Assembly (NCBI RefSeq): GCF_003704095.1
Contig: NW_020844818.1
Span: 1-64,000 of the forward strand
DNA: 64,000 bases
Origin: Pocillopora damicornis
Taxonomy: Eukaryota
Direction: 5' to 3'
The position numbers were made by a program, and so were the translations under genes. Positions within the stretch are counted from its first letter, which is position 1, and each line of letters opens with the position of its first letter. The notes beneath the pieces are model-generated. The model searched no databases, had not been told where the DNA came from, and saw only the letters and a program-made list of their open reading frames with translations. Shown one piece after another: positions 1 to 24,374 of the stretch.

Positions 1-3000
1 CCATTATATTAGGTGGTAACCCTGGGGGTGGACCAGGAGGGACCATGCCAGGCATCCCTGGAGGAGGGCCTGGGGGTCTGCCAGGCGGTGGGCCAGGAGG
101 AAACATTCTTGGGGGTGGGGCTCTGATCTGAAAGTTTGGCTGAATGGGTAGACTTCCAGGCTGCTGACTTCCAGGTAGGGGAAGCTGTCCAGGAGGTGGG
201 CCAGGTGGTGGCCCTGGAGGTTGGGGTTGACCTGTCTGTGTCATAGTTTTTCTGGATTGATCTCCTTCATTGCCTGCTTCCTGCTGTGTAAGGGCATAAA
301 ATTAAGTCAGAAGTTTGTGTCTCTTCAAGGTGCAAGATCACAGATAGTTCAACAGGAAACCTCTCACTACAGTGATCCTTGAAGACAGAAAATTCCCTTA
401 ATTCCCTTTTAGCTGCACAGTTTTTGCCTTTTTGTGTTTGTGTTTAACATGATGGTTCCCAAACAAGAACCAACAGTTGCAATGCTAAAAAGTATAAATC
501 AAATCAAGAATGGAAACAACACATGGGAGACAAAATGATCTGAAAAAGATGAAAGCCTACAAGCAGTCAGAAACAGAACATTTCATAAGGAGTGTTCCTG
601 GTAATGGCAGAGTACTTAAATTAAAACTACTTACTGGTTTATCAGGGAGGGGTTGGCCTGCCATTTTAAGAAGAAAGTCTTGTATTGAAGTGGTACCAGC
701 ACTTTTTGAGGACTGGCTCTCACCCCCACTATTTTCAACTTCATCTGCAAACCTCACAGTTCTTTGGCGCTCTCCCATTTCTGCAAACAGCAAAACCATA
801 AAACTCCACTTTTGCTTAAAATATATTTAACGATTTTTAGCAGAGCCACTGTAGAACTTATAACTCCAACAAAATATGGTGAACCTAGCGGGCTGCGAAA
901 AAAAACATTTTCAAAGGAAAACCTTGCATGATGGCTGCACCTGTGCATATTTAAATCTTTCCAAACATTTTATGGTCTCTTTTTTCAAACTGTTAATTTT
1001 GATTAAACGAAAACCAGTAAAAATCAATTGCAGTAGTTGGAGCTCTGAGTTTAGCCTTTACTTAATCAAAATATTGTTTAAAACCTTTATCTCCTTCACT
1101 GTCATCCATGCCATCATCTCTGCTGTCTCCAAGTGGTTGGCCATCTCCAGCATCTCCCTCCAATCTTCCAAGTGGAACTGCAGGATCATACTCCTCTTCC
1201 TCACCTCCTGATTCACTGGTGCTCCCTTCACTGTCATCATCATCATCATACTGACCACTTTCCATGTCCTCAGGTGCTATTCCAGGGGGGAGGGGTGGGG
1301 GAGCACTCATTGGTGGTATACCTGGTGGGGGTCCTGGTGGGGGACCAGGTGGGATCATTCCTGAGGGGCGTTTTGGTGGAGGCCCAGGAGGAGGACCTGG
1401 GGGGATCAAACCTGGAGGAAGGGGCCTAAAGTATGTAAGAGAACAAGGATGTTTTATTGGCAGAGAATCTAAAAAACTCACAAAAATCTTTTAGCATGTG
1501 ATTCACAGCTGCAAAGATTTGTTTGCCAGTAATTTTACTGCGGGTACTGGGTAATTGTAACTTCTGGAGAGTTAGCAAAGGATTAGCTTACACTTGTTAT
1601 GAGTATTAAATAGAGTTTGCAAAGATCTCTTTCTCTGAGTTTTAGTTATAAAACCCTGTTTGACCTCTGTACATTACTAGTATCTGAAAAGTATGATAAC
1701 TACTACAAGAAAACTTCTTCTTGACAGATCATTTATTCAATTTTCAATAGATACATGTACACCACATAAAATTCCACAATGGTCAGCTACTCACAGTTGT
1801 CCAGGTAATGGTCCAGGAAGAGGGATATCACTTGGCATTAACATTCCTAACAGTTTTGAAAAAGTTGAGTTATTAGTGCTACAGAGATGACTTAGAAAAT
1901 AAATCAGTGTGCCCCTACAAATATATTGCACGGTATCATTAATCAGATGAACAGTACCTCTCCCACCTATCAAGGAACAATAAAGACAGAGTAATATGGA
2001 TACACACTACACAAGCATGGAAATAACAGGAGTGACAAAAAAATTTATCTTTTATTTTAACCACAAACACATTTCAAAAACTCAGAACCCTCCTTTACAG
2101 AGAGTATAATGAGGGCTAAAAAGAGAAGATTTTTGTGCCATACCTGCATGGGGAAGAGGGATGTTTGGTGGCAGAGGGATGTCAGGAGGCATTCTTGCTT
2201 CCTGGAAGATAACAGAGTACATGTGCATGTGTCACATCAAGGGAAATGTGAAGAAAAATCTTGGAGCTTTTCAATACACTTTTGTCTCAAGTACACGAAC
2301 CTGAGTTTAAGACATGCCATGCAATTATGGTGTCTTTCTCTACATGTTTGTTCTACAAAAAATCCTCTGTGGTTTTTACCTCAAATTTATATCCTTCTTC
2401 ATCCTTTACCCTAATTTTTGTTATCACCCTCCTCTAGTGTTTTTGTCATGGGTGAATTCAGAAAATTAAGGAAGACCTGATGAAAATGTAGTCTTCTCCC
2501 AACCACAGGACAAAAATACACACTTGAGAGAAAGTTGGTTGACAAGCACTCTTCCAAGTTGGGGTTTAACTGACCTCCTTTTGTTCCTCTTAAATCTGCC
2601 AATTTTCTTTCAGTTTAAATTCTCTATTTAATTGTACATTGTACCCACACCTACCTCTGCTAGAGCTTTTTGTCGTATTTCTGAAAAAGATAATAAATTA
2701 TGTTTTTTTCTGGCAAACACATGTATGTGATGTTCTTAATAAAGATCTTAAGGCAGAGATAAACCATCACAGGGAATCAGTTAGGAGCCATTTTGCTAAA
2801 ATGATGGATATGTTTGCAGTTCAAGTGTTGTGTCTATCTTAAAATTACCACTGGTTTTCTTTAAACGTGCTTAAGCATTTCAAGATTTGTTTTCTTACTT
2901 TCTTGTGGGAAATGCTGAATTGAGGTCTGAAGCAAGATCACAGGTGAGATTTGTGTTTGGTAGGAAGATGAAAATTGTAAAGTTTGTCAAACAAGGGGGC

Positions 3001-6000
3001 TGAATCAGTATGTGCAAAAATAGCAGTTTGCTGTTTGTCAAAAAGATTAGGAGCATGGGGACTGTGATACAAAATAGGCAGCACAATGTCATACTTCCAA
3101 ACTGAAAATTTGAGCCACAAGCATTCAGAATAGCTGGCACATTTATCAGTCAGAGTAGATGGTGAAGTGCCCCCAGTTGCCAGCTCATTATGAAAATCCT
3201 GCATTTGTGCTTATTTTATTTTTTTTCTCTGAAAAAGAATTTTAAAAACCAAAGGCTATCACAGAGATACTGATAAGCCTGTTTGCAGCTAAAACAAGAT
3301 CAAGAAACTTGACAGCCTGAACTAACATACAAGTATTGGTATAAACATGTCAAGGTAGCAGCAAAAATTGATAAAATGTGACCTACTCTGGCAGACAAAG
3401 AAGCCCTCTTAAAGTTTCCTGGTATCAAGTATAAATTACAGTCTATAAATCAGGATGAAAAAGTTATCCACATTACCATGAGCAGACATTTGAGCCTGTA
3501 AACGTTTTCTCTCACTATCAGCAATCAATCTGCAAGGCAAGTTTGAGTTTCATAAATTCCACAAGATCTTAGATGCAGTTTCATGAGATTTTCTTTCCCA
3601 CATCATAGAGGGCAGCATATAATTGGAAAAAATCTCAGGACATCTTAAAGAGTCATTAGAGGTGGCTGAACAACTTCTGATGCATTAAGTGGCCTAACCT
3701 GGCCTAAATGACCTGACCTGAGTAACACTAACATTTTTGCTTCCCTAGTTGACTGGTGGGAACGTTCAATGATTGTATCACTGAATCACTGAATTGAAGC
3801 AAAAGTGGCCCACTCTCATTAAAGAAAGTGAGTTCAAGTTGTCTGTCAACTGCCTGGTGCACATTTTTCATCATTCATCCCTTACAGTAATATTATAACT
3901 GAAGAGACTTAGGGCAACAAGGAACCTCTTCTTTTCCCACAGATAAAACAACAATTGCCAAAGTCACAGATTGACTGACCATTTTTTGTTTGTTTTTACT
4001 TACTGCCTCATTTGTCCAGAGTGAGATGGATCATCTTTCTCCTACAAAAAGTTTCATCAATAACAAATAAGATGTTTCAGGAAACAGATACAATAACATC
4101 ATAAGAATGTAAAAAATTATGGTCAACAACAATCAGAGAAACAAATTTCAGAGAGACTCACATATAGTTTCAACATTCTGTCGAGTGTTTCCTTCAGCTT
4201 TCTTTTCTTCTCTTTAAGTGCCTTGTCATTGGGAAGTGGGACTGGCCCAGCATCAATTTCTAATGATATAGAAAATGCTAAAAATTAATACTGACTTTCT
4301 ATGTGAAGAAAGAAAGATAAAGATGAAGATGAGCAAATGAACTGAAACACAAATACTGACGTCTAATTTCACAGTGACTATATACATTTTATTTAGGTCA
4401 TAAAAATAATTTAAAGAAATTATTATACAAAAACTGTTAAAAAAGAAGAATGCTCACAAGGTTTTTTGTACTGGTGTATAGGTATTGTGTTAGTTTTAAT
4501 GAAAACAAAAAGGTTTCATGTCCAAGAATCAGGACACCAAATATAAGGAAGCTAAAATTTTCAACAACCTTCACATCCCTATTCAAGTACCACAAACCCT
4601 AGAAAACAATGTGGTTTTTAACTTGATCAAAAACAAAACCCTCTCTGGTCCAAGAGCTGTTTTAGAATTGAAATGTGTGGTCCTGACCATGTGAACTCTT
4701 TCAGGGGCTTTTTGAAAACATTTTCACCGATTGGTAATTACCTGTCTAATAAAGTATTAGACACTGGAACTATTGACATACAGTGTACACTTTTAACCCT
4801 TTAATCCCCAAAAAAGATTACCATGTAACTTCTCCCTAAAATATCTGTACACTATTCAGCAAACAGGTGATGAGAATACTCAAACCTATCAGACAGAAGT
4901 TGTTACATTGATGTAACACCAAATTCTCATAACATATTTACAAGGAAATGTGTAGCAACTAGAGTGGAGAATTAACAATTAGATCTTGGGAGTTAAAGGG
5001 TTAAAAGTGATGTTTGATAATTTGTAAACTCATAGGGCTTTTCAAGACCATTATCTCTTGATGTGCGCTGTAAAATTCTATCAATTTATTACTTTAAATT
5101 AGTTCTGCAAAGAACCAGGTGCAAAAGTATTACATTACCCATGGTTTCAATTTTCTCAATTTCCTCTAATATCCTTTGAGGATCCTTGGATTTTAACACA
5201 GCTTCCCGTACCATCTTCCTCTGCTTCTTATTCTAGTGTATGAAAATAAACAAATACATGAATTACTTCCTGTTTTAAGTTTTAGAATTTGGAGGCTTAG
5301 TATCCAGTGTTTAATGGCTGCTATAGTACTAAAAGAAATTTAAAATCTATTTGAACTTCAGGGTGCTGCAGAGAGGACATAAAAACATAAGTACCAAGCT
5401 TGAACAAAGCAAAAGTACTTAAGCATGGATTTTCAAAATTTTGTTGAGAACATTTAAAACACTTAGCATATCTGGTAAAATTTCCGCACAGCCCTATACT
5501 AGTGTAATTCAAATCTGTTTTCCCAATGGAAATGTGTTGTTTTTGGCATTGTTTTCTCTAGTCAAGAACTGAATGCATAATGAAGTATGGGGCTGTGCAG
5601 AAATTTTATTGCATATCTTTGGCATAGAAGTGAAACATGCACCTGTGTATATGCTGCATAGGTCTTTAACAATCCACACATGTGTATTGTTAATTTATGA
5701 AATACAGGTAGAAGCATACATGTAGATCAGCTTACAAAAAGTATTAATTTTTTTATCCATCTATATTGAAATAATTATGGAAACAAAAGTCAAACAATCA
5801 AGATTTTCTAAGAAGAAAATGGTTATTCGAAAAAAGAAAAAAAACAGCTCATTTTTCACATTTGTTCAAACACCTACAACTGTTTTGAGAGGAAGATACA
5901 ACAAACTCAGGTAAGTTTAATCCTTATGGAATTTAATGACTTGAAAATGAGTAGTCTAATTCGTAACTTTCATAGCTGCAGCAGGCTAAACCTCTCGAAA

Positions 6001-6265: not shown

Positions 6266-6965
6266 CTTGCACTAGTGAAAATACAACAAGTAATGTGTTA
6301 AATGAAAGGATAGTCAAGTGCTGTTAGTGCAGTCAAATAACATGGCGTCCCCTTAAGCTTTGCGACCGCGTCTGAGTGAAAGAGCAGCCATGGCCTTCAT
6401 GATTATTTACTTTTTAAGTAGGGTAGGGTAGGAGGTAGTTTCCGAAAAAATAGTTTTGGAGTTTAGAAAATTTTGCCCTTTCTTGTGGGTTTTTTGCATT
6501 ATAGAAGTTAAAGGATGAGAAAAAATTCAATTTAATCCAAACTTTGAATTAAAATACCCAGGATTCACGATCTACTCAATTCTAATACCTTGACGTTACC
6601 CTACCCTGGTAGGAAAATGCTATGTCGCTTCTTATTGTCTGGGTATTTGCGTGCTTTTGTGTAGTGTCTTTGACTTTTAATTCTTCCAATTTCCTTAGGG
6701 ACTTATCAAGTGTCTCTCTAATTGATCCTTCCTGTTTATAAATGATTTAAGCTTAGTCAGACACTTGTCTTTTTGGCGGGCAAAACGACGAAGCTGCTCA
6801 CTTGTCATAGGTCTGCAAAGTTTAAATAACAATCTGGCCGACATGAAAGCAATGGAAAGCTTTCAAAACGCCTTTGGGAAAATTTAGGCTCCAATAGTAA
6901 CTTTTATTGTCTGTGGAGAAGATTGAACGATGTCGTACAATGCGATGTAATCTCGAGCCTGCACA

Positions 6966-9900
6966 ATGAATTATTTAGAGGGAAGAGTCACAAGGAGCTT
7001 GGAGCGGCAGAGAAGCAGAACTACGTTCTCCCAAGAATCAACTGCAGTTGTGAAGAGTGGATATTTGTGGAAGATTTCTCATCACCCAGGGAGAACTTCA
7101 TCTCGAAGCAGATACTTTGTCCTAACCAAGAGCTCCCTGGATCATTTCAGAAACCATAACAGGGTAAAAGAACAACACATGATATAATGTATTCTATAAG
7201 CTAAACTTCACAAATGTTCACGTGCATTTTCATGGAATTTTCGGAAAGATTTACGCATAAAGCCATTCTGTTCAAGAACAAAGTTTTAGTCGCAAAAACA
7301 TTCTGCTTTTTTTTTCATTCTTGTTTTCTTTTATTAAGAAATTGTATGAGTAATGATGTATGCCGCTCTATGGAAATCTTGCAAAATTTCCACTTGCGTT
7401 GCACAATAACTTGAGTAAAACGCAAACAACACGAAGCTCCCCAGATATAATCAACTCAAATAAGTGCTTGATCTTGTTCGGAAATGATCTTGATAAAGAT
7501 CAGATCATTTTATAGTTAAAAACAATAATTATAATAGGGAGAAAACGAAATTCAGGGAGTTGGGAGAGATAGATTAAAGCCAATTCTGCAAAATTATAAT
7601 AACTTTGGAAGAGGGTGAATTTGACATACTAACATAAGTATGCATATTCTCCATACTGTTCTTAATACATTTCCCAAGTTGCTGAAAAAGATAATTTGTG
7701 TGACAATCAAGAACTTGTCTTGGTGATCATTTCCTTTATCCTTGTGACGGTAAAGTGTGATTTTTGGTTGATCTTGTAGGGAGAAATTAGATGCTAATCA
7801 CTCTTAGGGGACAATGCTCTAAACAACTCCTGAATATTGATAATCAAATGATGATCCTTTCTTATTAGGAAAAACTCAAGGGAAGTCTTCCATTGGCTGC
7901 CATAGATGCTGTGGAGAAGCTGCGAGAAATTAACAACTCCTTAAAGATCACTGGCCCCTTTAAACATCCACTGATTTTACAAGCGTCTGGAATAAAAGAA
8001 TGTCAAGAATGGATAGAGGCCATTGAGAATGGTAAAACAACACTTAAAAATAAAGCAGATTTCATTTGGCCTTGCTAGTGAAATGTTGCATTTCCCATCA
8101 TGTAACCCACCCAGTTTTTTGGAAGAAAAAATGTCAGGTTCTATTTTGTTGATCAACATTTTGATTTTGACGATAATTTGCATCCTAGATTTTAGGGGAA
8201 AAAAATGAAATCAAGACTTGATGTTGTATGGATATTGTTTATATCTGATTTTCTAGTTTGCTTATTATATTGGACAAGTCTGAGTTGGAAAGACAGTAGT
8301 CCATTTTACAGTTGCGTTCTTGGTTGCCAAGCCTTTGAATGGGAGTGAGGCTAGAGTTAACCTTATTATGATACAAATGTTGCTGCTTTTCTAATGTAAT
8401 CCACTTTGTTATCATGCCAACTACATACTGGTCTCTATCACAACAAGGTCACCTTCAGCCTTACTCCAAATCAAAGGCTTGGCAACTAAGTACACAACTG
8501 TGAAGTGGCCTATCAGGGAGTTGAGATGTATTTGTAACCAAGCCATCTTACCTTTTACTAACCCAGGCTTCCTTTGTCAATTTTGTCATTTTCCCTTTTG
8601 TTCATTTCTTTCCCTGATGAACCAAAGGAGCTAGAAGGCAATCATGTCATCGTAAAAATGTTATGTATTAGATTACGAATCATAGAGTTATACTTATGAA
8701 AATGACACATAACTTTTCATTTTAATATTATGGCAATTTGATATTATTTGTATTTAGGAATTCAGCAGTGGTGTTTAGATTCTGATGCAAACTCATCTTT
8801 GCATAAGGAAGATGAAATAGATAGCTTACAATGTTCTTTGAATGCTGCACCAAAGATGAAGGTACCTGGATGTCTGTCTGTACTGATTAGTGCTGAAGTG
8901 AAGTTTATTAAAGTACATTCCATATAAAAACCATTATTTCTGATAGTTGTATTGCAACCTAAATACATTGTCATCTGAATAACTGTAAAAATATGTGAAT
9001 GAGTGGTTTGTCTGCAATGTTTCATAAGCCAGGAAGCCAATCGCATTAAATGAATTTATATTTCCATACCAAGTGAAGCACCTTTGACTTAGGGCTAAAC
9101 AGCAATGTGTAATTCTCAGGAAAACTATATTACTTCATGCCCAGGGTCCAGTTGTTCCAAGGGCAGATAGCACATAAATCACTGTCCAGTGGATAAGTGT
9201 TCATGAAAGGTATTGCATTATCCATGGGATGGAGGTTTATCCAGTTGATAGTGTTATCCACCCTTTGAACTACTGGGCACAGGATGCTTTGTATCCAATA
9301 TAAGAAACATTAACTGATAAGAAACCTTAACTGATCACACAATCCAACTCTATTTTAGCTCAAAAATGTACCTTTGGTTACCAGTTACTCCATCTGCATG
9401 CTACATTCTAGGGTTAATATCAAGCAGCTAAAAATCTGCATGCTTTTACATTCTATAAGGAGATCATATAATCTTCAAAATTTTTGTGGTGATACTGATA
9501 GAAAGTCATCAAAAAGTCATTTGAATCAATATTTATAATTGCTGATACATATTTCTTGATTTTGTTTTTGTAGATGCTCTATCCTTCTTTGTTTTGCCCT
9601 GTTGGTGATGGAGTTTTGATTTCAGGTGAATAATTTTGTTTTGTGTTTGCTGATGATAACATAGACCAGCATATAGTGACTTATATCGTTAGACCTCGTA
9701 ATATCATAATGTGATTCGTTTTTAATTGTTTAGGTTATTTTTTATCTTAGAATCAGTGCTTCATATCTCAATTTAGGACATACCACACAGGTGACTAGAA
9801 CTCTTTGCATGTACTGATTGCCTAGTTTGGAAGTGATTATCAGCTGAATAGACAAAGAGACAAAACCATGCATCAAGAGTTTAATTTCTGACCATTTTTG

Positions 9901-12900
9901 ATATATCATCAGAGTAAACTCCTTGTTTGTTTATTTGTTTGTTTTTGCAGTACGTACTAACACAAGTATTCACCTCAATGTTGGTGAAAGTTGTGGATAT
10001 TTATTAAACCGTGAAACATCAGTGAAAGTAAATATCCACCATTCTTCACCTCCTTTGGTGATTAATTGATAAATACTGTACATTATAAGTAAATTTATCA
10101 TAAAGACAAGATATCATGTTTATTGACTTTATAGATCCATCCATTGACATCATATATGGTTACTCAACTAACATGCATTTTTTAAATTATTGTCCAGCCG
10201 CCAGTGAGCTTCATCAGGAGTTTCCAATGATAAAGTATGCACGTATTGGGAGGTCAATTCCACATGAAAGAGTATTTAAGCTTGACAAAGACAACTTGGT
10301 AAGAGAGAAGATATTTTGAGCTTAGGAGATAAAATTATATTTATTAACTGAGTATATGAGCAAAAATTGTTTTACTTGTAGGTCGTAGAATTATTTTTAT
10401 CTGTCATATTCTATTTTACAGCATATCATGTGGAAGAAAAGGGGAAAAGGTCATAGCTTTTCTTTTACCAACACTTGTGAGTTTGCATCTGAATTGTATT
10501 TCTATGTATTTTCCTGTTTGATTGAGGTTAATCAACCCTCTCATACCCCTTCATTAGTATTCACATTCTCCTTACTGATCTTTCTATATTTCATATAGTA
10601 CTGACAAGGAGAATTTGTTTGACCATCAGAGCTGTTTTAATTGGTGATAATTTCTGTTATTCTTATACAGGGCGTGAAATTGCGCCTAATACAGGCGCCA
10701 ATGCGACTAAATTTTTCACTTTGGCGACCAAATCCTGAAAGTTAGTCACCAAATTGGCAACTAGAACGTTTCATCATAACCTTACCAAGAGATATAGTGA
10801 ATTAAAAAGATTTGCAAAGATAAATCCGCAGCAAACTTCCTTGTTAAGTTTGTTTCCAAAACGTAGCACATGCATCTCGATTGATAACTAGATGCCATCT
10901 TGGATTTAGATGAGCCTGAAAGTTGTATATCATCCATCCTAGTGTCCACTTTGTAGCACGTTAAGGATCTTTTCCCTAACTTAATTTTGGAGGGTCTCTC
11001 TAGAACGCTGACAGCGTAAAGAAAGATTTTGTTTGTCTTTGAAAATGGCGACCAACTTTTTTTGAATTGGCTACCACTTTGAAGAATTTAGGAGCCAAGT
11101 GGCTATCAGAAAAAATAATTAATTTCACGCCCTGTTATAACCTTTACATTTGATTCAAGGGTGATAGTGTGAGGAGAAATTAGAAGTCAGTCACTTATAG
11201 GGTTTAAGGGATCAACAAAACTTTTTCTGTGCTTAATGCTTTATGTGGATGATGTATTTTGTTTTGTTTCATCAGTGTGTTTAGACAGGGTTATTGAGGT
11301 ACGCTGTGGTCAACAAACCAAAAACTTTGTCAAGTTTCCTTACAATGAAGTTGAGGAGCAGTCTTTCTCACTCATGTTTGAGAAACAACAAGGTATTAAT
11401 TTTTTTATCTGTAGAGAATATTGCAGATGAAAAAAACTCATTTTAAAAATGGGGATGAACTTAGATTAGGAGAGAACTTCAAAGTACATACTAGACCTTG
11501 ATTCAGCCATATAACGTGACTTAACATTGATACAAAGACTCCTTGACGCTGTTTAGATCAGAAGTATACTCTGAAGGTCACACTTGATTAAAATGAAAAT
11601 TAAGGTACACAACAGAAAACCACAGCTATTAATGGACACTGGTGCTGTGGTGGAAGATAATTGTGGGCTAAGATAATCAGTAACTATATATACATGATTT
11701 TGCCCTACAGTTGTTTGTATTGGCATTTTCACAAATTTATTCTTCGTCAGTTCAGAAGCATGTTTTCTTTTTATAGGGGAATGGAGTCAGTTATGTTCCT
11801 TGGATCTTATTTGTGACTCAGAAAAAGCTTATGAGAAGTGGACAAGTGCAGTGAGTACTTTATTATTAAATGTGTGATCCTTAACCCTCTCACTACCAGG
11901 AGTGACCAAGAAACAATTTCACCCTTCAACATCAATACACTATTGAGCAGACAGGTAGTGAGAAAAAGGAAATGTATCACCTACTGTACAGTGGGGAATC
12001 GTATTTGAATCAATGCCTAGTTCTCAGAACTAACATTATATGAAATGTATAACAAACAGATGGGAGAATTTGTCAAAGGAGCTTAGTTGGGTTGCTGTCA
12101 GCACATCCACTTTGTGATCTTGTAGTTTTTGCTTTCAAATTGTTGCAGATTTTGATTGCTGTTTGTTGTTTTTGAAAAAATTATCTGGTTACCCTCAACC
12201 TCCTATAAGAAACTACCTTTCTCTTATAAAACTTGCAGCTTCTTGTGAGAGTTTCTACTGTAGCTATGACATGTTATCTGTATTGTTATCTTTTTTCGAT
12301 AGTTCAAACAATTTTTTATTCAGAGAGGGAGAATGTTCCTGATAATAATTTGTGCTATTCTCTTTCTACCATTTAATATTTCTTTTTAAATACCTCAAGT
12401 TTAGCTTTGATGCAGAGTTGTGGCCTTTTATAATGCTGAATTTAAACTTCTTTCAGATGAGAGAGGTTATTTACAGCAGAGATCAAAGAGTAAACAGGCA
12501 CAAATTTGATGGTGTAGATCCAATTGTCCTGTATCCTTTTATAATAGGCTCCGACCTATCTTTTAGGCTCAATTCTTGGCAGTTTGTTTAGTTTCCAGTG
12601 TAATACTCTGTACCTACATTTGTATTGAGTTGGAAGGAAGAAGCAAAAATTTTTGGCTTGAGGTCGTATGTCATGATTGAAAGCCAAATATTTTTTGGTC
12701 TATCTACCCCACCCTAACTTAGGTAATAAGCATTTTATTATATTATTGCTGCTTTTTCCCTTTCCTTTTTTTGGTTTTTTTCTTTTTTCTTATAGGTCAG
12801 TTCATTGGGCTTTGTGGTCCTCATTTTGAGATATTTTATTTTATTGTTTTTCATTTAAAGTGATTATATAAAAGACGCTGTGAAATTAGTGAATTTTGTT

Positions 12901-15900
12901 TTCCTTCCATGTCTTGAAATGATTCTCCAAAAATATCAACTTCTTATTTTTAGCAATGAATTTTAAAAATACTTGCACACAAATTTTACATAGGATAGCT
13001 ATGTCTTAGGCCCTTTCCATTTTTTGGTTAGCTGGTATTTGTCTTTCTATTGTAAGTTTTTTCTTTGATTCAATATACAAAGCTGGTTAAAAAGGCACTG
13101 GTCAGTAATGTCATCACGACACAGCAAGGGAATTTCCGTGGACCAAGCTTTGTCTTTTGCTCAACAATGCAGTGGAGCTAAACGGAAACTGATGAGAAAT
13201 TACGTTAAGGTAGGAAAACAAGTTCTGCAAGACTCCAGTTTCTGAAACATCTGGATATCCTTTGATTTTTTGTTTTTGTCTTGTTGGGTTTTTAGGATGT
13301 ACTTGAGGCTCAGTGTGGAATGGCTCAGCATAATGAGAATCTGCTGTGGAACTCCTTTGTAATGCTGTTCAACTCTCTAAATAAACAACCAAAGGTTAGT
13401 ATTGTTACAAGGCTAGTTACTATATGTTCAGAGGTGTTTCTTTAAAGTTTATGTATTCATTGCTAAAACATTATGAGAGCAGTCATTACTATTATTCAAG
13501 GCCAAGGAGTGATGATTAAGCTCATCTTAAAGGTTTTTGCCAGATGATTTCATTTTTTTTTTTTGTATGCTCTCTCTCTCAAAACTCATCTACAGTTTTA
13601 TAACACTGACTGTTAAATAGAACAGTCCAAGACTTACTGTGGTCTTAAGATCCTTGTTTGATTACTTATAGGCTCTCATGACCACTCTTGGTGAAAAATT
13701 ATACATCTTCAATATTATCTATCTCTAGGGTAGAAATAGTACAAATTGCTTTAATTCACTACATTTTGGAAAATCATAACATGTGCATTATGGAAGAGAT
13801 ATTGATTGCAATTAAAGTTATGGACAATTTAATATCATTATGTCAATGTCAATCTGTAATAACTTTTTTAACCTTTTTTTTTTACCAGTTGTACGAGATG
13901 TTTTGTAAGTATGCAAAGGAATACCCTGACCTTGGTATGACACCAGCTGAGTTTGCAGAATTTCTTAACAGAGAGCAAGAGGTAAGTAATGGAGAATTAT
14001 TACACTTGACATCTGTGTTGACACTTGTGTTAAGTTTTTGGTAAATACACAAATTATACGTTATCAAGAATGTTGATAATATTATTTGATATTTTATACA
14101 TGTTGTTGATGGTGAAGTTGTTAGTAACAGTGACAGTCGTGATGTAGGAGATCCATTAAATATGATTTTTTTTTATAAACAGGAAACACTCAGTCTAGCT
14201 GCTTGTGCGAGGCTGATGTCAGCTCATGACAAATTTCACATGATATTCAAGCAGAGATGTGCAGGAGACAATCCAGATTTCTTCAGATTGAGTAAATCTC
14301 TTCTGTCATATCATGGATTTTTAAGGTAAATAAAGTTCTATCAAGAAATCACTGTTCAGGTACTTGTACAAACTATTATTTAACTATTATTGGAGGACAG
14401 TATAATCATTAAGATCTATAACCTTCTACTTAAAAAAAAAGTATCTGTGAACTTGGCCATACTAGTACACTTTTTGCTGAATATGTTTATTGTAATGGGA
14501 TACTTCTCTGTGCTTAAATAAACTTGGATGATAGTTTTAATTTCCCAAGGGTTTAACCACTTTTTAAAGTTATGCAAAATGTAAACTGTCACTAATGACA
14601 CAAATTGACAAACGACTGAGGAGGCAAGATTAGGTTTCAATTTTGTCTGCGTAATTTGAGCTAAATCTTTGAGCTAAGGGTGATATATCTTTGAGGCTCA
14701 CATTTATAGATAAAATTAAATGGGCTTTACAACTCTGGAAAGAAGAGAATTTTAAATATAACTGCAGCCTTATCATGTGTTAACAAAATTAAACTAGTAG
14801 CAACTATTAAGAGAGTTGTGTTATTTTATTTCAGTTATCTCAGAAGTGAAGACAACTCTGCTGTCAATCCAGAAGAGAAAACTGTCCACCAAGTGAGGGG
14901 TGATTTGATTTATTCAATAGGAATTGAATCAGGCAGAATTGTCAGAATACATTTTGACATGAATGTGTGTTTGAATTTCAGTTGTGCGTGAATCACCCTC
15001 GAAAATGTTGTTTGGTTAAACTTAAGCATGGGGCCCCCTCTGTGCTAAGAATTATGTTCTTGTCTGTGGGGGAGATTTAAATATATATGTAAAGTTAGCT
15101 ATTTATTGACCTTCCTCTCTTTTCAATATTGCTGAGGAAGGTTCGCACAAAGAAAAACAATGTAGCATCAAAAATTAAGTAGAAGGGGCCTCGCAAAATT
15201 CAAACTTAAAGTTAATATTTGAACTTGAACTGTTGTTTTGTGATGAATAGAATGATCTTGGTTGTTACACAGTCATCGGGATTTGTTTCCCTTTTTTTCT
15301 TTCTTTCTTTTTTTTAATACAGGACATGGATCAGCCTCTGTCTGATTATTTTATCAACTCATCTCACAACACCTATCTCACTGGACGACAACTGAAAGGC
15401 AAATCCAGTCTTGAGGCTTATGTAAGAGCTCTATTACAGGGCTGTCGCTGTCTTGAACTTGACTGTTGGGATGGCCCAGGTAGGTGAAATGTAATTTACT
15501 TGTTGATGTCATGTGAGGGCTAAATAAAAAATATCTGAAGGCAACAGTATATATTTGTATAGATGCTAAACGCAACAAGACAATCATGTGATATCTATTT
15601 CAATATGCAGATAGGTATTTCCTATCTGATTTCTGTGAGATGTTAGTCATCCCAATTCAAATCAAATTTCAAACTCAGCAATGAGATAATTAATATTTAA
15701 ACTGTCAGCGGTTGCAACTTGTGGTTTCAAATACTCAATGTTCCACAATTTAGCTGCACCATAACCTATTAGCAGTACTTGTGAATGGGCAAGGAATGAT
15801 GATTTGCTTGTATGCCCCTACATCATACAAGGTTACAAGACAGTATTATTTTGGAATAAAAATTCAAAATTGAGGATTATACAATATTATGAAATGGACA

Positions 15901-18900
15901 TGTTTTTAGCCTAAGGTTACATGTCACTGTTTTCTTCACTATCTAATACATACTTAATTTTTTAAAATCAATATTACTCTGCTGTAAAATGAGAAAAGAA
16001 ACTGTCTTTGGATTTCAGACGAGCCTGTGATAACACATGGACTTACACTCACATCTAAAGTCAGGTTCAGAGATGTGGTGCAAGTTATTAAGGTAGGAAT
16101 GATGCCTTGTTTTTTATTTCAGTAGAGGGATTTGATAAATGCATGATATAACTTAACCACTTAATTCTAATACACACTGGTTACTGTTGGAGAAATAAGT
16201 TTAGGATCCTTTGCTGAGGAAGGGACAAAGATTGCACTGAAGAGAGTGTGGTTTAAAGAAAAATTTAACTATGTTTTGAAAGTCTGTTGTCAGAAAAAGG
16301 CCTGATAAAGCTTTGCCTCATTCTGGTTTGAAGATATCTTGCTTCTGTTCGATGCATTGATGGAATACTGTTAGTGGGTGAACTAGATCAACTTGCACTG
16401 TGTTTTCCACAGGGCATATATTTAAAATTGTGCAATTCTTGTTGAGAATATGTTCATTGAATATTTGTGTCATATACTTGGTGTGTAATTATAATGCTGT
16501 AAAGTGATTGTGTTTGAAAATCATACTTTTTGAAACTTTACTAAAAACATACAACACAAAACAAACCATTTTTAATGTTTAACTGAGCTTGTTTTATAAT
16601 AGTGGTGTAAAATGCGTCTTTGCACAATGCCAGCAGAGTAAGCAACAAGAAGTACATGCTCTGATTATCAGCAAAATGGAACTAATGCATATTATTTTAT
16701 AAATGTTAGGGAAAACATGCATACTGCAAACCTTACTTTAACTCTTAAACCCGTAAGAGTGACTAGCAACTAATTTCACCTTACAATATCATCCCTGAAT
16801 TTAACATCCAGGTCATGAGAGGAAAAGAAATGATCTTCAACATAACAAATTCTTGCTTGAAAAATGAACTCTCCCTAAAAGTAACTGTTACATTGAAAAT
16901 GTTTTAAGGACAATACAGAGAATATGCATTATTATGTTATGGTGTGAACTTTAACTTCATTGTATTGTGTCTTTTTACAGGAGTATGCCTTTGAGACAAC
17001 AGATTTTCCTTTGATTTTGTCCCTAGAGAATCACTGCTGTGAGCAACAACAAGTAGGTTCAAGGAATGATATTTCAATGCTATGATCAATGCTCCTCTAG
17101 AATTTAAAAAATACATTTGGTCTCATTTTTTTTATCAATCTGTAGGCGATCATGGCTGACATTTTTGTCTCTGAGCTTGGTGATATGCTGGCAACAAATA
17201 ACCTCTGTGATGAGATGAGTATCAATACTCTTCCTTCACCAAATCAGCTCAAGAGAAAAATTCTGTTGAAAGGCAAGATTAAAGTCAAGAAAAAGGTGAA
17301 ATCATGATTCAAACAAGCACTTTATTTGATGTAGTCAAGGTGTTCTTTGTTCCTGTGTGAGTTATGAATGGGCTATGATATTAAATATTCCTTTCATTTT
17401 TGTTTTTCATCCTTCAGCACAAGATATCAACTGCCATTACTCCTATAATCTCGGTAAGTATTTGGACTCCAAGGTTATGTAAAGGTAGTGTAGTTACAGG
17501 TAGTGCGAAAAGGTGTTAACTGTAGTCTTCACACCACATGTTTAATACTGGCTGAATGTCAAATTCTCTGAGATGGCACTGGAATGACTGCAGTGGGTTT
17601 GACTTACTTTATGCAAGTAAGACCTTCATAAGATTCCTGATACTGATTTACATAGTACTACGTAGTATTACTTAGTCATGGCTACTTGGTGACTACAGCA
17701 TTACGTTCCACACAGACTCTCCTATGTTCAGGATTGACTGTATATATTGTTTAGTGTGCACTTCATATAAATTCAAATAGGACTAGGTTTACACTTTATT
17801 CATATATATTTTGTTGAGATTTTATTGATAAGGACACTTTTTTATGTCAGTTGCACAGAAAGTGAATATCTCTAGTAATCAATCATGGCCATTTCTCTGG
17901 AGAAAGTACTATTTGTATTCTGTTCTTTGAGTTAGATGTTAATGGTTGACTTTATCTCAAATAGGGTCTTACTCCAAGGGTAAAGAAGACCAGCAGAGTG
18001 CTAGTTTCAAGTCAGGTACCAAACATCACTAGTTTTATTTTTATTTGATAATTACAGTGTATCTGTATAATAGATTGCCCCTGGCAAACCCTGTAACCTC
18101 TTTATTTACTCAGAATAGGGTTTTGTTATGCTGGCTTGTCAGGTCTTTCATGCACTAACTAGAGTTATGATAAAATGCAAATTTATTTTTTTCAAGAAAA
18201 GTTAACTTTTTATTTTAATAACCCTTATAGTACAGGACACTTTTGAACCTAGGCCAATATTTCACTGCTAAAGAATGTTTTCAGTTCATTGCTCTGAATT
18301 CTGTCAACAGTCTGAAGCAATGTTGGCAAGAACACCTTCATCACAGTCACTCGGTACTAGATTGAGATCTTCAACAACAACCACATTGACAGATGACAAG
18401 GTAATGGGGTATACTGATTTTTGGTTTCAGAATGAACATAGCATGGGACAAATTCAATCACAGTCAGGAGCGGAACCAATTAAGTTTAAAAATCATCTCG
18501 ATTTAGATATTCTTGGCAATACATAGCTGGCTTGATAGCTCAGCTGGATGGCAATTAGTTTAAATCCCATAAAAGCCTGACAAATTTTTAACTGGCTTTC
18601 CTTTCACAACTATTTGCATTCTGCATACAACATGTCCACTGGGTTGACTTGTCAACTTTCCAGCTGAGGATGTACTGTGGTCTTATTTTAAGAAAAGCTT
18701 TCTTCTCCCAGCTTTGAGTAAATAGGACCACCAGTTGGTCAAGTGGAATTACAACAGAATCTGGCACCGAAACATGACATAATTGAGCCAGAGGGCATCT
18801 GATGGCATGTAAAAGAATTAAAGAACTTATGTTAAATCAAAGTTAAATTGGTTCCATGACCAGCATTTTACATTTACCATGTTCCATATTTCATTTCAGA

Positions 18901-21900
18901 GCTCAACAAGTGAAGAGCAGTATCACATAGTAAGTCCTCTAAAAATTCATATTCCATTATGATAACTCGGGACAGGAACACACAGAGATCATCATGATAT
19001 CTCAGTGTATTGCAAGCAAACTTGACAGTTTCCAGAAAAAATGTTGTGCTCTATGTTGCTGTGGGACAAGGGGGGGCATTCAATTTACTTGTGTTTGTGA
19101 GACCATACTGATCTCTTATTTCACCATCACTATGGTTTTCTAGGTCCCATTAGAAGATGCCATGGGAAAACTGATTGTGTATATGCGTGCAGTTCCTTAC
19201 AAGAGGAGTGAAGTCTCTGGTGACTGCTGTGAGATGTACTCATTTAATGATGGAGCAGCACAAGATGCCATTACAGGGCATCCAAGAGGTGTGATCTGAA
19301 TTTTAATTCTCCCATCTTATTGTCATACATCTCCTTGTAAATTAGTCAAGAGAATTTGGTGTTACACCAGGAAAACATCACCCAGCTGATATCTTAAAGT
19401 TTGTTTTCTTTCTTGTTGTTAGTTTGTTACTGGTAATTAATGGGTCAATGTGGTCATGAGAAGTTATATGTTGATCCTTTTTGGAATTTTTTCGTATTCT
19501 TTAAAATACATAAGATATGTCTCTTCTGTAACTTTTCCTGTCTTACTTAGCCCTCTAACTAGTCTCAAAATTAACAGGGGACATAGCTTTTTTTCCTAGA
19601 AATTCTGAATGGAGAAATTGGATTTTTTATGATGATGGTGGTTTTGAAAGCTGAAATTCTTTGAGGAAAGATGGAGGGTCACATAAAAAAATAGAGACTG
19701 AAATAAATTCTGAGTGCTTTTCATAGAAGTGGAACCTTAGAACTTATTGCATCCCATAAATTCAAGATCTCTTATAAAATAATATGACATATATATATAT
19801 TGCATACACATTTTGTATACGCATTTGCACACTCTCACATGACTTTTCCATGTAATTTCAGACAGATGCTGAGTACTGCAATGTGTAGTTTCATGAAGAT
19901 CTAATGCTTATTTTGTGTTCTTTAGATATTTTGTATTTGGCTAACAAGCACATTGTCAGGACATATCCCAAAGGTTCAAGAGTGGACTCATCAAACTATA
20001 ATCCCCAGACCATGTGGAATGCTGGTATTCAAATGGTGGCAATTAATTTTCAAAAACCAGGTGTGTTATAAAGAACAAATTGCGAAAGAAACTCTACAGT
20101 CTTATTATATTTAACCACAAATATCTCAAAATTAAAATTAGCATAACCTCAACTCACATATCTCTACTAGCCTTATACCTTTTTCTGTCTCTCAGAAGCC
20201 CTGATCAGTTTTTGATCATTTTAATTGTTGTCATAAAGTTTGAGATACTATACAAGATCATTTAGTAAATATGCTGTAAAAGATCTTTTCATTTTCAAGA
20301 ACACCTCTTATGAAATAGTTATTCTGATCATTATCCTATAATCTATCTCAGCCAGTAAATTTTCATTGACAGTTAATTCACAAAAGACAAAAAAGAAGGA
20401 GTTTTTAAAGGGATTTAATTTGGTTTCCATCTTTGATCTGATGATCTTCATTCTTTGTCTTGATTATTTCATGTTCCTTCAGGTGTCAGAGAGGAAATTA
20501 GTTTTTTTTTTTAAAGTATTGATTCCTATTGATCATTGGTGTTATTTTGCAGATTTTAGCATGCACCTAAACCAAGGAAAGTTCAGGAAGAATGGAGGAT
20601 GTGGTTATATTTTAAAACCTGATTCTTTGAGAAACAGAGGTAAGGAATTTGTACTGGTGAACACTGTTGTCTTTATTATCTCATGGTGGCAACAATAACT
20701 GTGGAACACTTGTTCCTGTTTTATCTAGAATTAACCTTTAACACCCACATGCCCCTGCCCTTGTGAAACTGATTTCAATTGACTGTTAATTTTTTGCAGA
20801 GAAGTCAAATTATCACCCAATGATTAAGGAAAGTCCCAAGAATGGAAAATCATGTTACTTCACCATTGAGGTTTGCCATTCTGTTGATTGAATTAATTTA
20901 AAGGGAAGGGGAATAAAATTCTTCAAAAAAGTTTGCAGGCCATGGGGCCATCCCTTGCTGTGTTGGTTTGTCTTATTCTCCCTCTCACTTTCCAGCCTTT
21001 CTGGGTTTTTCTCCCCTTAAATTTCTGTGTTGGGTGCCTGGTCCTATTCCATGGAACCTCTTGGTTATAGGATTTGCCTGCCATGGGTGTGGCACCCAGT
21101 TAAGGTGCTGATTGGACTTACACAGTGGTCAAATGTCTGCACATGTGGAAACGTTGTGTTGGCCAAGGGTCTTGCTCTCAGCTTGGCAGAATCAAGTTCT
21201 CTCACAGGAGTTACAAAGAAAAAACCTTAGGGTCTACATGATGGTGTTTTAAAAGCATAAAACATTTTTGATAACAATCAAACCAAAATGGAAAATCAAT
21301 TGGATACCCGTACTTAAATAAGCTTTACTTTATATTCACTTTTGTTGGTTAGGCATTTGATATTGTGCTTTCCTTAACTGTAAACATTATATCAATAAGA
21401 AATTTTGAAATTAAACTGCTTTTTTTTTAGGTGTTATCAGGGCAATATTTGCACTTGGATCAGGACTCTTATCTTCCAATTCGTGTTGATATTGAGATAG
21501 TTGGTGTCCCACAGGATTGTGCATCGCTTAGCACAGAGGTTAGCTTTGAAATTTACCTCACAAAAAATTATAAAAGAAGTGATTAGCTGATTGCATGTCA
21601 ACAGTCCAAATAGTGACACTATAAGGCCAATATGATGTAGTTTTTGGTTGTCCATATATAGTGGTGGCACTGTTCTCAGGTGTTGTGCAATGTTTGGTGT
21701 TCCTGCTGTCATCAATGGGCGTAGTCCTCTTTTCTTAACTGGTGACGACGCTTTTCTTTATTTCTTCATTAGCCAACTATGGACAAGCTGAATCCCCAGT
21801 TTGAAAATGCCAAGCGTCTCTTTAAAATAATCATGCCGGAATTGGTAAGTGTTGAGAAATGAATTGATCATTGATACCAACTAAAACTGTGAAAAAAATC

Positions 21901-22670
21901 ACTGCTGTGTCTTTAACAAACTTAAATTTTGTCTGTGCCTTTCAGTGTCTGGTTTACTTCAAAGTCCATCTGCTGAACAGAAACAAAAGCAGAATTATTT
22001 TTCAAAATGTACTTTCTTTGGACAGTCTTAGACCAGGCAAGTTGAAGTTCTGAGGGAATGATCACAATGAGGTTTCATTCCAACCATTACTGTATCACTT
22101 TTAAGGACAAGTCAAACTAATTTACCATCTTGTGCAGTTTATAGAGTTCTTTCACTCAATCTTGAACTCCATGCTATGGCGTTCGATAGGCTATCTGAAA
22201 ATCTCCTGAACCAAATTACCAATTCCAACTAGTCTTGTACTTGTAATCGTCACAAACTATTCAAAGGGTCATGAAGTTCTGATCCTACAACTGACCTGTA
22301 GAGAGACGTCTTTTAACTTGCATCAAATGTCCTTTTAAGGAAGAAGACGCTTTGTGTGCTGGCTATATAGTACAGTTGTAGGTAGCTCAAAGGTCTAGTT
22401 CGTTAAAACTTCTCTCCATTTTTGTAGAAAAACTGCCGCATCCTACTCACCTCCCCCAAAAATCGTAGCAATTTTCGGACAAACCAAATAGCTTGTGATT
22501 AATTTATTTGCTACATATTTTTTTTAGGACTTCACTACATCCGACTGCGAAGTCCAACAGGTGTTGAGATTCCCCACAGTGGTCTGTTTGTCCGTATAAA
22601 GCTTCAAGAATTTGAGCCATCCTCTTGTATTGTAAAGGGAACCTCACGAGAGAGACTCCTTACATTTTAG
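6966..22670 (+). CDS. Phosphoinositide-specific phospholipase C (PH-PH-EF-X-Y-C2, delta-like core), ~30 exons
   Basis: X box [52 protein letters not shown] (15322-15479), EPVITHG (16019+), [11 protein letters not shown] (16981+), [17 protein letters not shown] box [32 protein letters not shown] (19926-20060), [11 protein letters not shown]2 VLSGQYL...SLRPGLHYIRL. Stop TAG 22668-22670. First exon 6966-7162 has PH motif [14 protein letters not shown]. Confidence 0.93.
8299..8510. mobile_element. TA-flanked MITE with ~40-bp TIRs
   Basis: TA|GTCCATTTTACAGTTGCGTTCTTGGTTGCCAAGCCTTTGA ... TCAAAGGCTTGGCAACTAAGTACACAACTGTGAAGTGGCC|TA. Confidence 0.8.
9142..9282. mobile_element. Palindromic MITE (CCAGTTGTTC...GAACTACTGG, internal GGATA/TATCC motifs)
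   Basis: Imperfect inverted termini; a related copy lies at ~46833-46980. Confidence 0.65.
10668..11134. mobile_element. 467-bp non-autonomous hAT-like element with 5-bp TSD, nested in an older TTAA MITE (~10528-11215)
   Basis: TTATA|CAGGGCGTGAAATT ... AATTTCACGCCCTG|TTATA, a perfect 14-bp TIR. The flanks rejoin into the MITE family seen intact at 26057-26267. Confidence 0.88.
12531..13082 (+). other. U12-type (minor spliceosome) GT-AG intron in PLC gene
   Basis: Donor GTATCCTTTT matches the U12 consensus. Branch-like TTCTTTGAT lies ~13 nt before the AG and there is no polypyrimidine tract. Joined frame reads PIVL-WLKRHW. Confidence 0.88.
18523..18620 (+). mobile_element. Degenerate tRNA-derived SINE
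   Basis: A-box-like TAGCTCAGCTGG, decayed B box GTTTAAATCCC, then AAGCCTGA..ATTTTT. An opposite-orientation relative lies at ~62150-62260 (CCTGAAACAATTCAGGCTTTGAAGGGATTCAAATCC). Confidence 0.55.
22037..22527 (+). other. GC-AG intron in PLC gene
   Basis: CCAG|GCAAGT donor and TTTTAG acceptor. Splicing restores SLRP-GLHYIRL, matching the PLC C2 'lrpGyrhv.L' motif; the unspliced frame stops at 22053. Confidence 0.85.
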
Positions 22671-22686
22671 ATTTACCTCAAATCTG

Positions 22687-22898
22687 TTAATTCTTTCACT
22701 CCCCAGATCTCTTGGATAATTCTCCTTACTGTCTGCCAAACAATTCTTATGATCTTAGTTCGGAGAATTTGGTATTGTATCAATTATTGATCTCCTTATT
22801 GATGTTATTCTCTATTCTCGTTATTTGTTTGCTTGACATTGTATTGATATTGTAAGGAGAAATTCTATCTTGGTCACTGATGGGAGTTAAGGGATTAA
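22687..22898. mobile_element. TTAA-flanked MITE at start of PLC 3'UTR
   Basis: TTAATTCTTTCACTCCC ... GGGAGTTAAGGGATTAA, 16 nt after the stop codon. Confidence 0.75.
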
Positions 22899-24374
22899 CG
22901 TATACTGCTATGTCAAATTTTGCTATTTAGTTTCGTTTTTATTGTAATCTATATTAGATACCGTTCTGATCTGGACTGATAATTCTAGAAGAAAGATATT
23001 TATTTATTTTTAATTTTTCAATTTCTCATGGGGAATCGTTTGGAAAATGAACTAAATGAAAGGATAATGTCAGATCAAACTTAGGTTCTTTTTTTGAGTT
23101 TGTGCGTCGGAGGAAGTTTTGTTTTTGCTTGTTTCTTTTATTATGTTGTGTTTCTTGGCATGTTTGTTTTGCTAGAGTTTTTTTACTCTGTAAAGCGCCC
23201 GACCACTCTGTATTCCTTATTCATGCCACTTGACAGTTCTTATCGTAGAGCGCGCGATGTTCTCAAAAGATTGACCTCGTTTATTATCGAAAGTTAAGAT
23301 TAAATGTTCAACTAAACGAGATTTCTTTGCTAAATAGAATTTTTCCCTAGGTACTCGTCAGCCGAAAGTGAGCAATGTGACAACCACACGAGTAAGGTCT
23401 TTTGTGACTGTAAAATCCTTGAACATAGTGATTTTAAAGTGAGTGTCGTAAACCACTACCAAAGTTATCACAACAACCAATCAGAACAAAGAAATAAGCA
23501 AAAGGAGTCAATCAAATTTCAAAGTTTAACTAGCAAACTGCCAGAAGCGCGGGAAAACGCGGGTAACCAAAACCTGGGCAATCAAAGATGCGAATCTCAG
23601 GTTCGCCGTTTAATTGAAAATTACTTTTAATTACTTTTAGTCAAGAAACAGCAAAAATTTAGATTTAGCCTAATTCTAGCCAGTTCACAAAATGGGATAA
23701 ACCATCCTCAATGTACTGAAATTAAAATTGGAGCTGTATCATGGTAGAGAAATAGTATGAACACTATTGATGATTGTTGAACATGACACAATAGCTAGAT
23801 CATGCTTTTACAGGGAGGGAAATAAGATATTTAATTGTCTAAATTAACTTGATCGAGAACACAGTAATTACTTGTACATATTATTTTATTTAGTTTTCAC
23901 GTATTTATTGGCGTTTTCATTCATCTACGATTTTAATGTACTATTGAATCATACTTCTCAAAGTCTTGAGAAAATAATATTTTGGAACGCGAATCTTATT
24001 TTTTATGATAGGATGTGAAGATTGTACAAATGACTCTGTTTTAAACAATCAGAATTACACTTATATTTTGTAATATATTATGTTGTAGAAATAAAACGTC
24101 TTTCACCTTTGATTATTCGGTTCGTGAAGCTGTCAGAATGAAGCTTAGTCTCGATACGGACAGAACACAGCACATTAAAAACAGAAGTCATATTTCAATA
24201 TTTCCTGCCCCTTAAACGTCTTCTTTCTCTCCTGATGTGTATTTTTAGACTGCTAATGATGAAGTTTATATCTTTTATTTGAAGTTTTATCAACTTGGGT
24301 CCTACCGTGTATATGTGACAACCGCTTGGCCTTGAAAGGTCTGGGTACGAGACTAATTGTAATTCATCAGAAGG

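What the first reader, a model, noticed from the sequence alone, without database searches (positions are those of the whole stretch)
6966..11850. Phospholipase C with two tandem N-terminal PH domains
Seen: exons 1-2 encode a complete PH domain ([47 protein letters not shown]). After a linker come exons for a second, PLC-type PH domain ([41 protein letters not shown]). Known: PLC delta/beta/eta have a single N-terminal PH and PLC gamma's extra PH is split within the X-Y linker. Inference: a lineage-specific PLC subclass with dual lipid or GTPase sensing.
Basis: partly seen in the sequence, partly recalled or inferred. Interest (0 to 1): 0.7.

Follow-up and report, generated by a model that had tools for sequence, protein, structure and literature searches.

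The report
Ancient double-PH phospholipase C subfamily
This coral gene makes a spliced signalling enzyme (phospholipase C) with an extra PH domain, a likely membrane-lipid sensor, at its front; the same design occurs in corals, sea anemones, jellyfish and sponges, which points to a likely undescribed branch of the enzyme family from early animals.

Summary
A 30-exon gene (6966-22670, + strand) encodes a 989-aa PI-PLC ordered PH1-PH2-EF-X-Y-C2. RNA contigs splice exons 1-2 to the core, and one 3,339-nt contig spans first to last exon. The protein equals a Pocillopora RefSeq model labelled 'PLC zeta-1-like'; that label fails, because zeta has no PH domain and a zeta clade is rejected (AU p=0.012). 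The design is not coral-specific: anemones, a scyphozoan, hydrozoans, demosponges and a calcareous sponge share it. On X-Y-C2 alone they form one clade (96/94) apart from beta, gamma, delta/zeta, epsilon, eta and PLC-L; a sister position to delta/zeta is not rejected (p=0.071). An ichthyosporean protein with the same PH2 but no PH1 is a possible sister. No bilaterian member was found, but search recall was incomplete. PH1 is not a copy of PH2: it folds like TAPP1/ARAP3/DAPP1 PH domains and keeps the basic lipid pocket. The catalytic residues are intact. All 19 complete cnidarian tails end in an Akt/14-3-3-like motif. Likely mechanism: a second lipid anchor, probably for PI3K products; untested. 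No description was found in the searchable literature.

The parts
6673..6965 (+). 5' UTR part of exon 1, with an in-frame stop just upstream of the ATG at 6966
   Evidence: X7 contig covers 6673-7162; in-frame stop shown
6966..22670 (+). Whole coding region: 30 exons, 989 aa, PH1-PH2-EF-X-Y-C2; 28 GT-AG introns and one GC-AG intron
   Evidence: identical to stored protein P0026 = XP_027041071.1
6966..7163 (+). Exon 1: disordered N-terminus and PH1 strands 1-3 with K36, R47, R49
7869..8031 (+). Exon 2: PH1 strands 4-7 and most of its C-terminal helix
8758..9625 (+). Exons 3 (8758-8861) and 4 (9574-9625): end of the PH1 helix and the partly helical PH1-PH2 linker
   Evidence: joints; model
10198..12530 (+). 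Exons 5-9 (10198-10298, 10422-10476, 11276-11392, 11777-11850, 12457-12530): PLC-type PH2 with K185, R188, R197, W210
13083..14892 (+). Exons 10-14: EF-hand-like region with a family-specific insert; first loop lacks acidic residues
15323..17295 (+). Exons 15-18: catalytic X domain (H501, N502, E531, D533, H545, E579, K629, K631)
17418..18929 (+). Exons 19-22: disordered X-Y linker, net basic and Ser/Thr-rich
19144..20639 (+). Exons 23-25: catalytic Y domain (S739, R766, Y768)
20800..22670 (+). Exons 26-30: divergent C2 domain lacking the delta-type aspartates, and a short tail
22647..22667 (+). C-terminal [RK]xRxx[ST]x-COOH motif (RERLLTF)
   Evidence: 19 of 19 complete cnidarian tails against 5 of 248 other PLCs

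Best explanation
This is a spliced phosphoinositide phospholipase C of an old sponge-plus-cnidarian subfamily, predicted to be active, whose extra N-terminal PH domain likely acts as a second membrane anchor that reads phosphoinositides, probably the 3-phosphorylated lipids made by PI3K. SHOWN: one transcript; two PH folds; intact catalytic residues; one clade on the catalytic core; PH1 is not a duplicate of PH2. INFERRED: (1) PH1, a signalling-type PH, was fused in front of an existing PH-EF-X-Y-C2 enzyme before sponges and cnidarians split. (2) PH2 sits in the usual PLC core and binds PI(4,5)P2 weakly or acts as scaffold, while PH1 adds a signal-dependent anchor, so the enzyme makes IP3 and DAG where both lipids coincide. 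(3) The EF1 loop and C2 loops lack the acidic ligands, so Ca2+ acts mainly at the active site. (4) In cnidarians only, the basic Ser/Thr-rich X-Y linker and the RxRxxT-x tail would allow kinase feedback, with Akt-type phosphorylation creating a mode III 14-3-3 site. Step 4 is the most speculative.
For: Transcript. Architecture in anthozoans, Rhopilema, Clytia and sponges (Sycon, Dysidea, Halichondria, Ephydatia). HMMs built from cnidarians only score sponge PH2 at 95-135 bits and EF at 103-144 bits, against at most 39 and 31 for the delta/zeta/beta/gamma/PLC-L proteins then held. IQ-TREE on X-Y-C2 (62 rows, 389 columns): cnidarian+sponge clade 96/94, outside the six reference groups. The genome has three other PLC X-domain loci resembling delta/PLC-L, beta and gamma. 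All 11 checked catalytic positions match PLC-delta orthologues (rat numbering recalled). PH1 against PH2: hhalign probability 1.75%, cross scores under 8 bits. The best PH rows for model residues 26-126 are TAPP1 (Z 16.6, rmsd 1.7, 98 aligned), ARAP3-IP4 (Z 16.3) and DAPP1-IP4 (Z 15.7). The beta1 K/R is kept in 15 of 16 family rows, position 49 K/R in 14 of 16, position 47 K/R in 9 of 16. Tail motif; definition of mode III sites from passages of PMC2860806.
Against: No binding or activity data. The fold hits are nearly tied with SKAP55, PLEKHA7 and Slm1 PH domains (Z 15.0-15.2), and a shared fold shows no ligand. The two hydrozoan PH1 domains lack the beta2 basic residues. Some members lack all or part of PH1: Nematostella isoform X2 P0017, P0022, Ephydatia P0092/P0095/P0347; truncated models and true short isoforms cannot be told apart here. 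A clade with delta/zeta is not rejected (AU p=0.071). The sponge X-Y linkers are neutral to acidic and the sponge tails lack the motif. The motif was noticed after looking, and related sequences are not independent counts. K631 varies outside anthozoans.
Confidence: 0.55

Rival explanations
1. PH1 mainly binds a protein (small GTPase, G-beta-gamma or cytoskeleton) or packs on the core as a lid, and does not sense lipid.
For: The best sequence match for PH1 is the KIAA0640 PH domain (SWAP-70, name recalled). Hydrozoan PH1 lacks the beta2 basic residues yet the domain is kept. A pTM of 0.86 with about 100 disordered residues suggests, by my inference, that the model docks PH1 on the core. PLC PH domains often serve structural or protein-binding roles (PMC12195575, section 2 and passages).
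Against: The basic pocket residues are kept in sponges and most cnidarians. PH1 has net charge +6. The closest folds are inositol-phosphate-binding PH domains.
Confidence: 0.3
2. The family is a fast-evolving offshoot of the delta/zeta lineage that gained one extra PH domain, not a separate class.
For: AU p=0.071 for family plus delta/zeta. The best sequence hits in the PDB are zeta and delta1. It has no beta, gamma or epsilon regulatory domains.
Against: The best tree places it away from delta/zeta/PLC-L/eta, though the deep branches are weak (81/75, 89/76). A separate delta/PLC-L-like gene exists in this genome. PH2, EF and C2 are strongly family-specific. A possible ichthyosporean sister (85/96, long branch) would make it older than animals.
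Confidence: 0.2
3. Exons 1-2 are a separate gene or an annotation fusion.
For: A few short ORFs read from exon 1 into intron 1 (P0004, P0005, P0007, P0009).
Against: Spliced contigs in four studies, one spanning the whole gene. The same fusion is in sponges and medusozoans. Exon 2 has a single match in this genome.
Confidence: 0.01

Closest known systems
PLC-zeta (PLCZ1), the automatic database label
   Same: EF-X-Y-C2 core; top PDB sequence hit (9bcz, E 1e-93); the linker carries a basic cluster.
   Different: Zeta has no PH domain (PMC12195575); this protein has two. Family plus zeta is rejected (AU p=0.0115).
PLC-delta (PLCD1/3/4)
   Same: PH-EF-X-Y-C2 with no long tail; same catalytic residues; PH2 keeps basic residues aligned with the delta1 PH; core Z 43.0, rmsd 2.5, 495 aligned to 1qat.
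   Different: Extra signalling-type PH1; EF1 and C2 acidic residues missing; basic, not acidic, linker in cnidarians; family-specific EF insert; separate clade in the best tree.
PLC-gamma
   Same: Two PH domains per chain; regulated by PIP3 according to PMC12195575.
   Different: Gamma's second PH is split around SH2-SH2-SH3 inside the X-Y linker. Here the linker is about 78 aa without SH2/SH3 and the extra PH is whole and N-terminal.
TAPP1 / DAPP1 / ARAP3 / PLEKHA-type PH domains
   Same: Fold of PH1 (Z 15-16.6, rmsd 1.7-2.1) and the basic beta1/beta2 residues.
   Different: Only 18-24% identity; ligand specificity is untested; the donor gene cannot be named.
Choanoflagellate multi-PH PLC (P0216 Microstomoeca roanoka; P0228 unnamed)
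   Same: Tandem PH domains N-terminal to EF-X-Y-C2.
   Different: Its PH domains are repeats of the PLC-type PH (PF16457) with no PH1-type hit. It branches near eta (90/88), so the origin is independent.

Membership tests
Eukaryotic PI-PLC (EC 3.1.4.11) | X and Y domains forming a TIM barrel, with EF and C2 domains | tested here: met
   PF00388 E 2.5e-62 and PF00387 E 2.2e-35; model residues 169-974 align to whole PLC beta/gamma/epsilon cores
Eukaryotic PI-PLC (EC 3.1.4.11) | Catalytic His pair and Ca2+/inositol ligands | tested here: met
   11 of 11 positions as in delta orthologues
Eukaryotic PI-PLC (EC 3.1.4.11) | Hydrolysis of PI(4,5)P2 | not testable with these tools
   needs an enzyme assay
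PLC-zeta | No PH domain | tested here: not met
   two PH domains
PLC-zeta | Groups with zeta | tested here: not met
   AU p=0.0115
PLC-delta | Single N-terminal PH | tested here: not met
PLC-delta | Groups with delta/zeta | tested here: inconclusive
   not in the best tree; AU p=0.071
PLC-delta | Acidic C2 loop residues and acidic X-Y linker | tested here: not met
   Asp positions are Pro/Leu/Asn; linker net charge +5 against -2 to -11 in the delta rows
PLC-gamma | SH2-SH2-SH3 and split PH in the X-Y linker | tested here: not met
   78-aa linker, no SH2/SH3 hit
PLC-beta | Long C-terminal domain after C2; beta clade | tested here: not met
   17-aa tail; beta clade 100/100 excludes it
PLC-epsilon | CDC25 and RA domains | tested here: not met
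   no such hit; epsilon clade 100/100 excludes it
PLC-eta / PLC-L | Canonical EF1 loop and long tail; clade membership | tested here: not met
   the eta reference rows were labelled from architecture and tree position, not from source names
3-phosphoinositide-binding PH domains | Beta1 Lys plus beta2 (K/R)xR (motif recalled; pocket positions in passages of PMC4287437) | tested here: met
   K36, R47, R49 in the window protein; 15, 9 and 14 of 16 family rows
3-phosphoinositide-binding PH domains | Measured selective binding | not testable with these tools
   needs a lipid-binding assay
Mode III 14-3-3 ligand | Phosphorylated penultimate Ser/Thr | tested here: inconclusive
   the sequence pattern is present in 19 of 19 tails; phosphorylation and binding were not tested

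The most novel reading that the evidence does not exclude
A seventh animal PLC class. Its core arose in unicellular holozoans (Ichthyophonus-type PH2), gained a PI3K-lipid-sensing PH domain in the animal stem, was kept by sponges and cnidarians and lost by bilaterians. It would link PI3K directly to IP3/Ca2+ without SH2 domains, and in cnidarians be tuned by Akt and 14-3-3 through its last residues.
Probability: 0.3. Interest if true: 0.8.

Novelty: new variant of a known kind. Interest (0 to 1): 0.62.

Why it matters
The six-class scheme for animal PLCs rests on mammals. A further subfamily shared by sponges and cnidarians means the common ancestor of sponges and cnidarians had a larger PLC set and that bilaterians probably lost a member. 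The gene is hidden under 'zeta-like', 'delta-like', 'eta-like' or 'beta-4' labels in databases, which can mislead work on coral and cnidarian Ca2+ signalling and on the origin of the sperm factor PLC-zeta. Nematostella and Clytia carry it, so knockout and lipid-binding tests are feasible.

Tried and rejected
AlphaFold on a 7-sequence alignment failed (pLDDT 29.7); the 97-sequence alignment worked. The first read-laying over 18.8 kb was swamped by intronic repeats, so the junction table comes from a narrower stretch. Pfam does not call the C2 domain; it is shown by alignment and fold. PH1 as a tandem duplicate of PH2 was rejected. Absence from bilaterians, placozoans, ctenophores and choanoflagellates is not established. 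None was recognised among the 120 listed rows (of 6,761 passing, 7,979 scored) or the best 150, and 0 of 249 non-family PLCs held here had a separate PH1-type domain. However, one search did not list the Sycon and Dysidea members, which score 756-801 bits and are only 34-42% identical to a listed representative, so its recall is incomplete; most of its rows are also unnamed. P0187 and P0188 ranked high only because they are doubled PLCs. The ESM Atlas search with the Stylophora homologue returned generic PLC clusters. Earlier findings of this scan: none. Literature searches for such a PLC found no description; I saw listings only, and searches returned no paper. bioRxiv 2025.02.09.637293 mentions only PLC-beta in its main text; PMC7003098 has no PLC mention; passages of PMC3527912 were not useful; one search returned no paper. 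No complex prediction was run, because the 14-3-3 idea depends on phosphorylation.
Full report
Verdict. Its regulation by a second lipid anchor is inferred, not shown.

Gene model. The window holds a 30-exon open reading frame from 6966 to the stop at 22668-22670: 989 residues, 28 GT-AG introns and one GC-AG intron. An in-frame stop lies just upstream of the ATG. The product differs at 3 residues from P0001, a protein from a 3,376-nt Logan contig. It is identical to P0026, RefSeq XP_027041071.1 from Pocillopora, labelled 'zeta-1-like'.

Transcript evidence. Of 22 listed runs I laid five. On 7815-10575, contigs show GT-AG joints 8031>8758 (4 of 4 runs), 8861>9574 (4 of 4), 9625>10198 (3 of 4) and 10298>10422 (4 of 4). 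The loose end before exon 2 is exon 1 sequence in three runs. One 3,339-nt contig of an oligo-dT run starts in exon 1 and ends in the last exon, and its internal length equals the 2,629 nt of exons 2-29. These are short-read contigs from related samples, but they remove the 'separate transcript' objection.

Domains. Pfam gives PH 28-122, a weak second PH, EF-like, X 488-631 and Y 714-823. PDB sequence searches match PH2 to the PLC-delta1 PH domain, PH1 to non-PLC PH domains (KIAA0640, PLEKHA6, centaurin-delta1), and the C-terminal part to the delta1 C2. The AlphaFold model from 97 sequences (pLDDT 86.5, pTM 0.86) has two complete PH folds. Residues 169-974 superpose on whole PLC cores (Z 37-43), and residues 26-126 on TAPP1, ARAP3 and DAPP1 PH domains (Z 15.7-16.6, rmsd 1.7-2.1), with other PH domains close behind. 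PH1 is not a duplicate of PH2.

Distribution. Orthologues with both PH domains occur in corals (Stylophora, Oculina, Desmophyllum, Porites, Acropora, Montipora), anemones (Actinia, Nematostella isoform X1), Rhopilema and Clytia. Ranked by X-Y similarity, the next full-length relatives after cnidarians are sponge proteins from Sycon, Dysidea, Halichondria and Ephydatia; an insect gamma row and a fish row interleave but lack the family's PH1/PH2/EF scores. Eight sponge or sponge-clade proteins carry a separate N-terminal PF00169 domain ahead of the PLC-type PH. Cnidarian-only HMMs score their PH2 and EF regions far above other PLCs. An Ichthyophonus protein has the best PH2 score outside the family (71 bits against 39 for the next) but no PH1. 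Some members lack all or part of PH1 (P0017, P0022, P0092, P0095, P0347). No bilaterian member was recognised, but the representative search missed known sponge members, so loss in bilaterians is likely, not proven.

Phylogeny. A FastTree of 174 X-Y-C2 sequences and an IQ-TREE of 62 rows that I chose from it (LG+C20+F+G4, 389 columns) recover cnidarians 100/99 and cnidarians plus sponges 96/94. Ichthyophonus is sister at 85/96 on a long branch. Delta/zeta (99/97), beta, gamma, epsilon, eta and PLC-L are separate clades, and the deep branching is weak. Grouping with zeta is rejected (p=0.0115); grouping with delta plus zeta is not (p=0.071). Both tests were run after I had seen the tree; the zeta hypothesis came from the database label. 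The genome has three other X-domain loci, resembling delta/PLC-L, beta and gamma (lower bound), so this gene is additional to the usual set.

Mechanism. Shown: all 11 checked catalytic positions are intact, with K631 variable outside anthozoans. PH1 keeps K36/R47/R49 (15, 9 and 14 of 16 rows basic). PH2 keeps K185 in 27 of 27 rows and a basic residue at 197 in 26 of 27. The EF1 loop and C2 loops lack the acidic residues seen in delta rows. The window's X-Y linker is net +5 with 26 Ser/Thr in 78 residues, while sponge linkers are neutral to acidic. All 19 complete cnidarian tails end in [RK]xRxx[ST]x, against 5 of 248 other PLCs, all five of them cartilaginous-fish delta3-like proteins; truncated or alternative-tail models were left out of the 19. 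Inferred: two-point membrane anchoring, with PH1 the signal-dependent anchor, most likely for PI3K products; Ca2+ acting mainly at the active site; and, in cnidarians, kinase feedback through the linker and a mode III 14-3-3 site. The definition of such sites is from passages of PMC2860806; RxRxxS/T as the Akt consensus is recalled. Against: no assay exists, hydrozoan PH1 has lost the beta2 basic residues, and PH1 may instead bind a protein or pack on the core.

Comparison with known classes. Section 2 and passages of a review of mammalian PLCs (PMC12195575) list the deviations from PH-EF-X-Y-C2 as zeta (no PH), gamma (split PH with SH2/SH3), epsilon (CDC25, RA) and C-terminal PDZ features of beta and eta. 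None has two whole N-terminal PH domains. Seven searches (listings only) found no description of such a PLC. The library lacks most subscription journals and I examined no supplements, so a prior mention in a phylogeny figure cannot be excluded; I put the chance that it is undescribed at about 0.75. A choanoflagellate PLC clade has repeated PLC-type PH domains, so tandem PH domains arose at least twice, by different routes.

Score. It is a new variant of a known enzyme kind, real, ancient and testable in Nematostella or Clytia. Interest 0.62.

Noticed in passing
P0216 (Microstomoeca roanoka), P0228: PLCs with repeated PLC-type PH domains at the N-terminus (two Pfam stretches each; a third is apparent by eye in P0216), branching near eta.
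   Followed up: partly
P0190, P0204, P0225, P0310, P0201, P0257, P0187, P0188: Other unusual PLC architectures: N-terminal C2 before PH; CH-SH2-C1 (Capsaspora); LIM-SH2; PDZ-PH (Salpingoeca); PLAT repeats; doubled catalytic units (Rigifila, a chytrid).
   Followed up: no
P0192 (Ichthyophonus hoferi): Has the family's PH2 signature but no PH1; either the pre-fusion state or an incomplete gene model.
   Followed up: partly
window 22037-22527: GC-AG intron before the last exon; consistent with the contig length and with P0001.
   Followed up: yes
P0014 and P0054-P0064 (cluster with Montipora): Many transcript-derived ORFs of 928 aa start at a Met at the exon 1/2 boundary and so lack the first half of PH1, while the RefSeq models are full length; alternative 5' end or ORF-calling effect.
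   Followed up: no
window 7629-7800, 8336-8500, 10588-11160, 22718-22900, about 4936-5006: High-copy repeats in introns and flanks that attract many contigs.
   Followed up: no
window 1065-1490 (-), 27878-28825 (-), 29921-30268 (+), 40647-42638 (-): Neighbouring open frames that look like WBP11, ECSIT, ribosomal protein SA and ZNF598; names recalled from the translations, not tested.
   Followed up: no
P0085 (Sanderia malayensis), P0006 (Orbicella): Database models of family members look mis-joined: a reverse-transcriptase-like piece replaces the PH region in P0085, and exons are skipped in P0006.
   Followed up: partly
Dysidea and Ephydatia proteins P0089/P0090/P0096, P0092/P0093/P0347: Demosponges appear to carry several paralogues of the family.
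   Followed up: no
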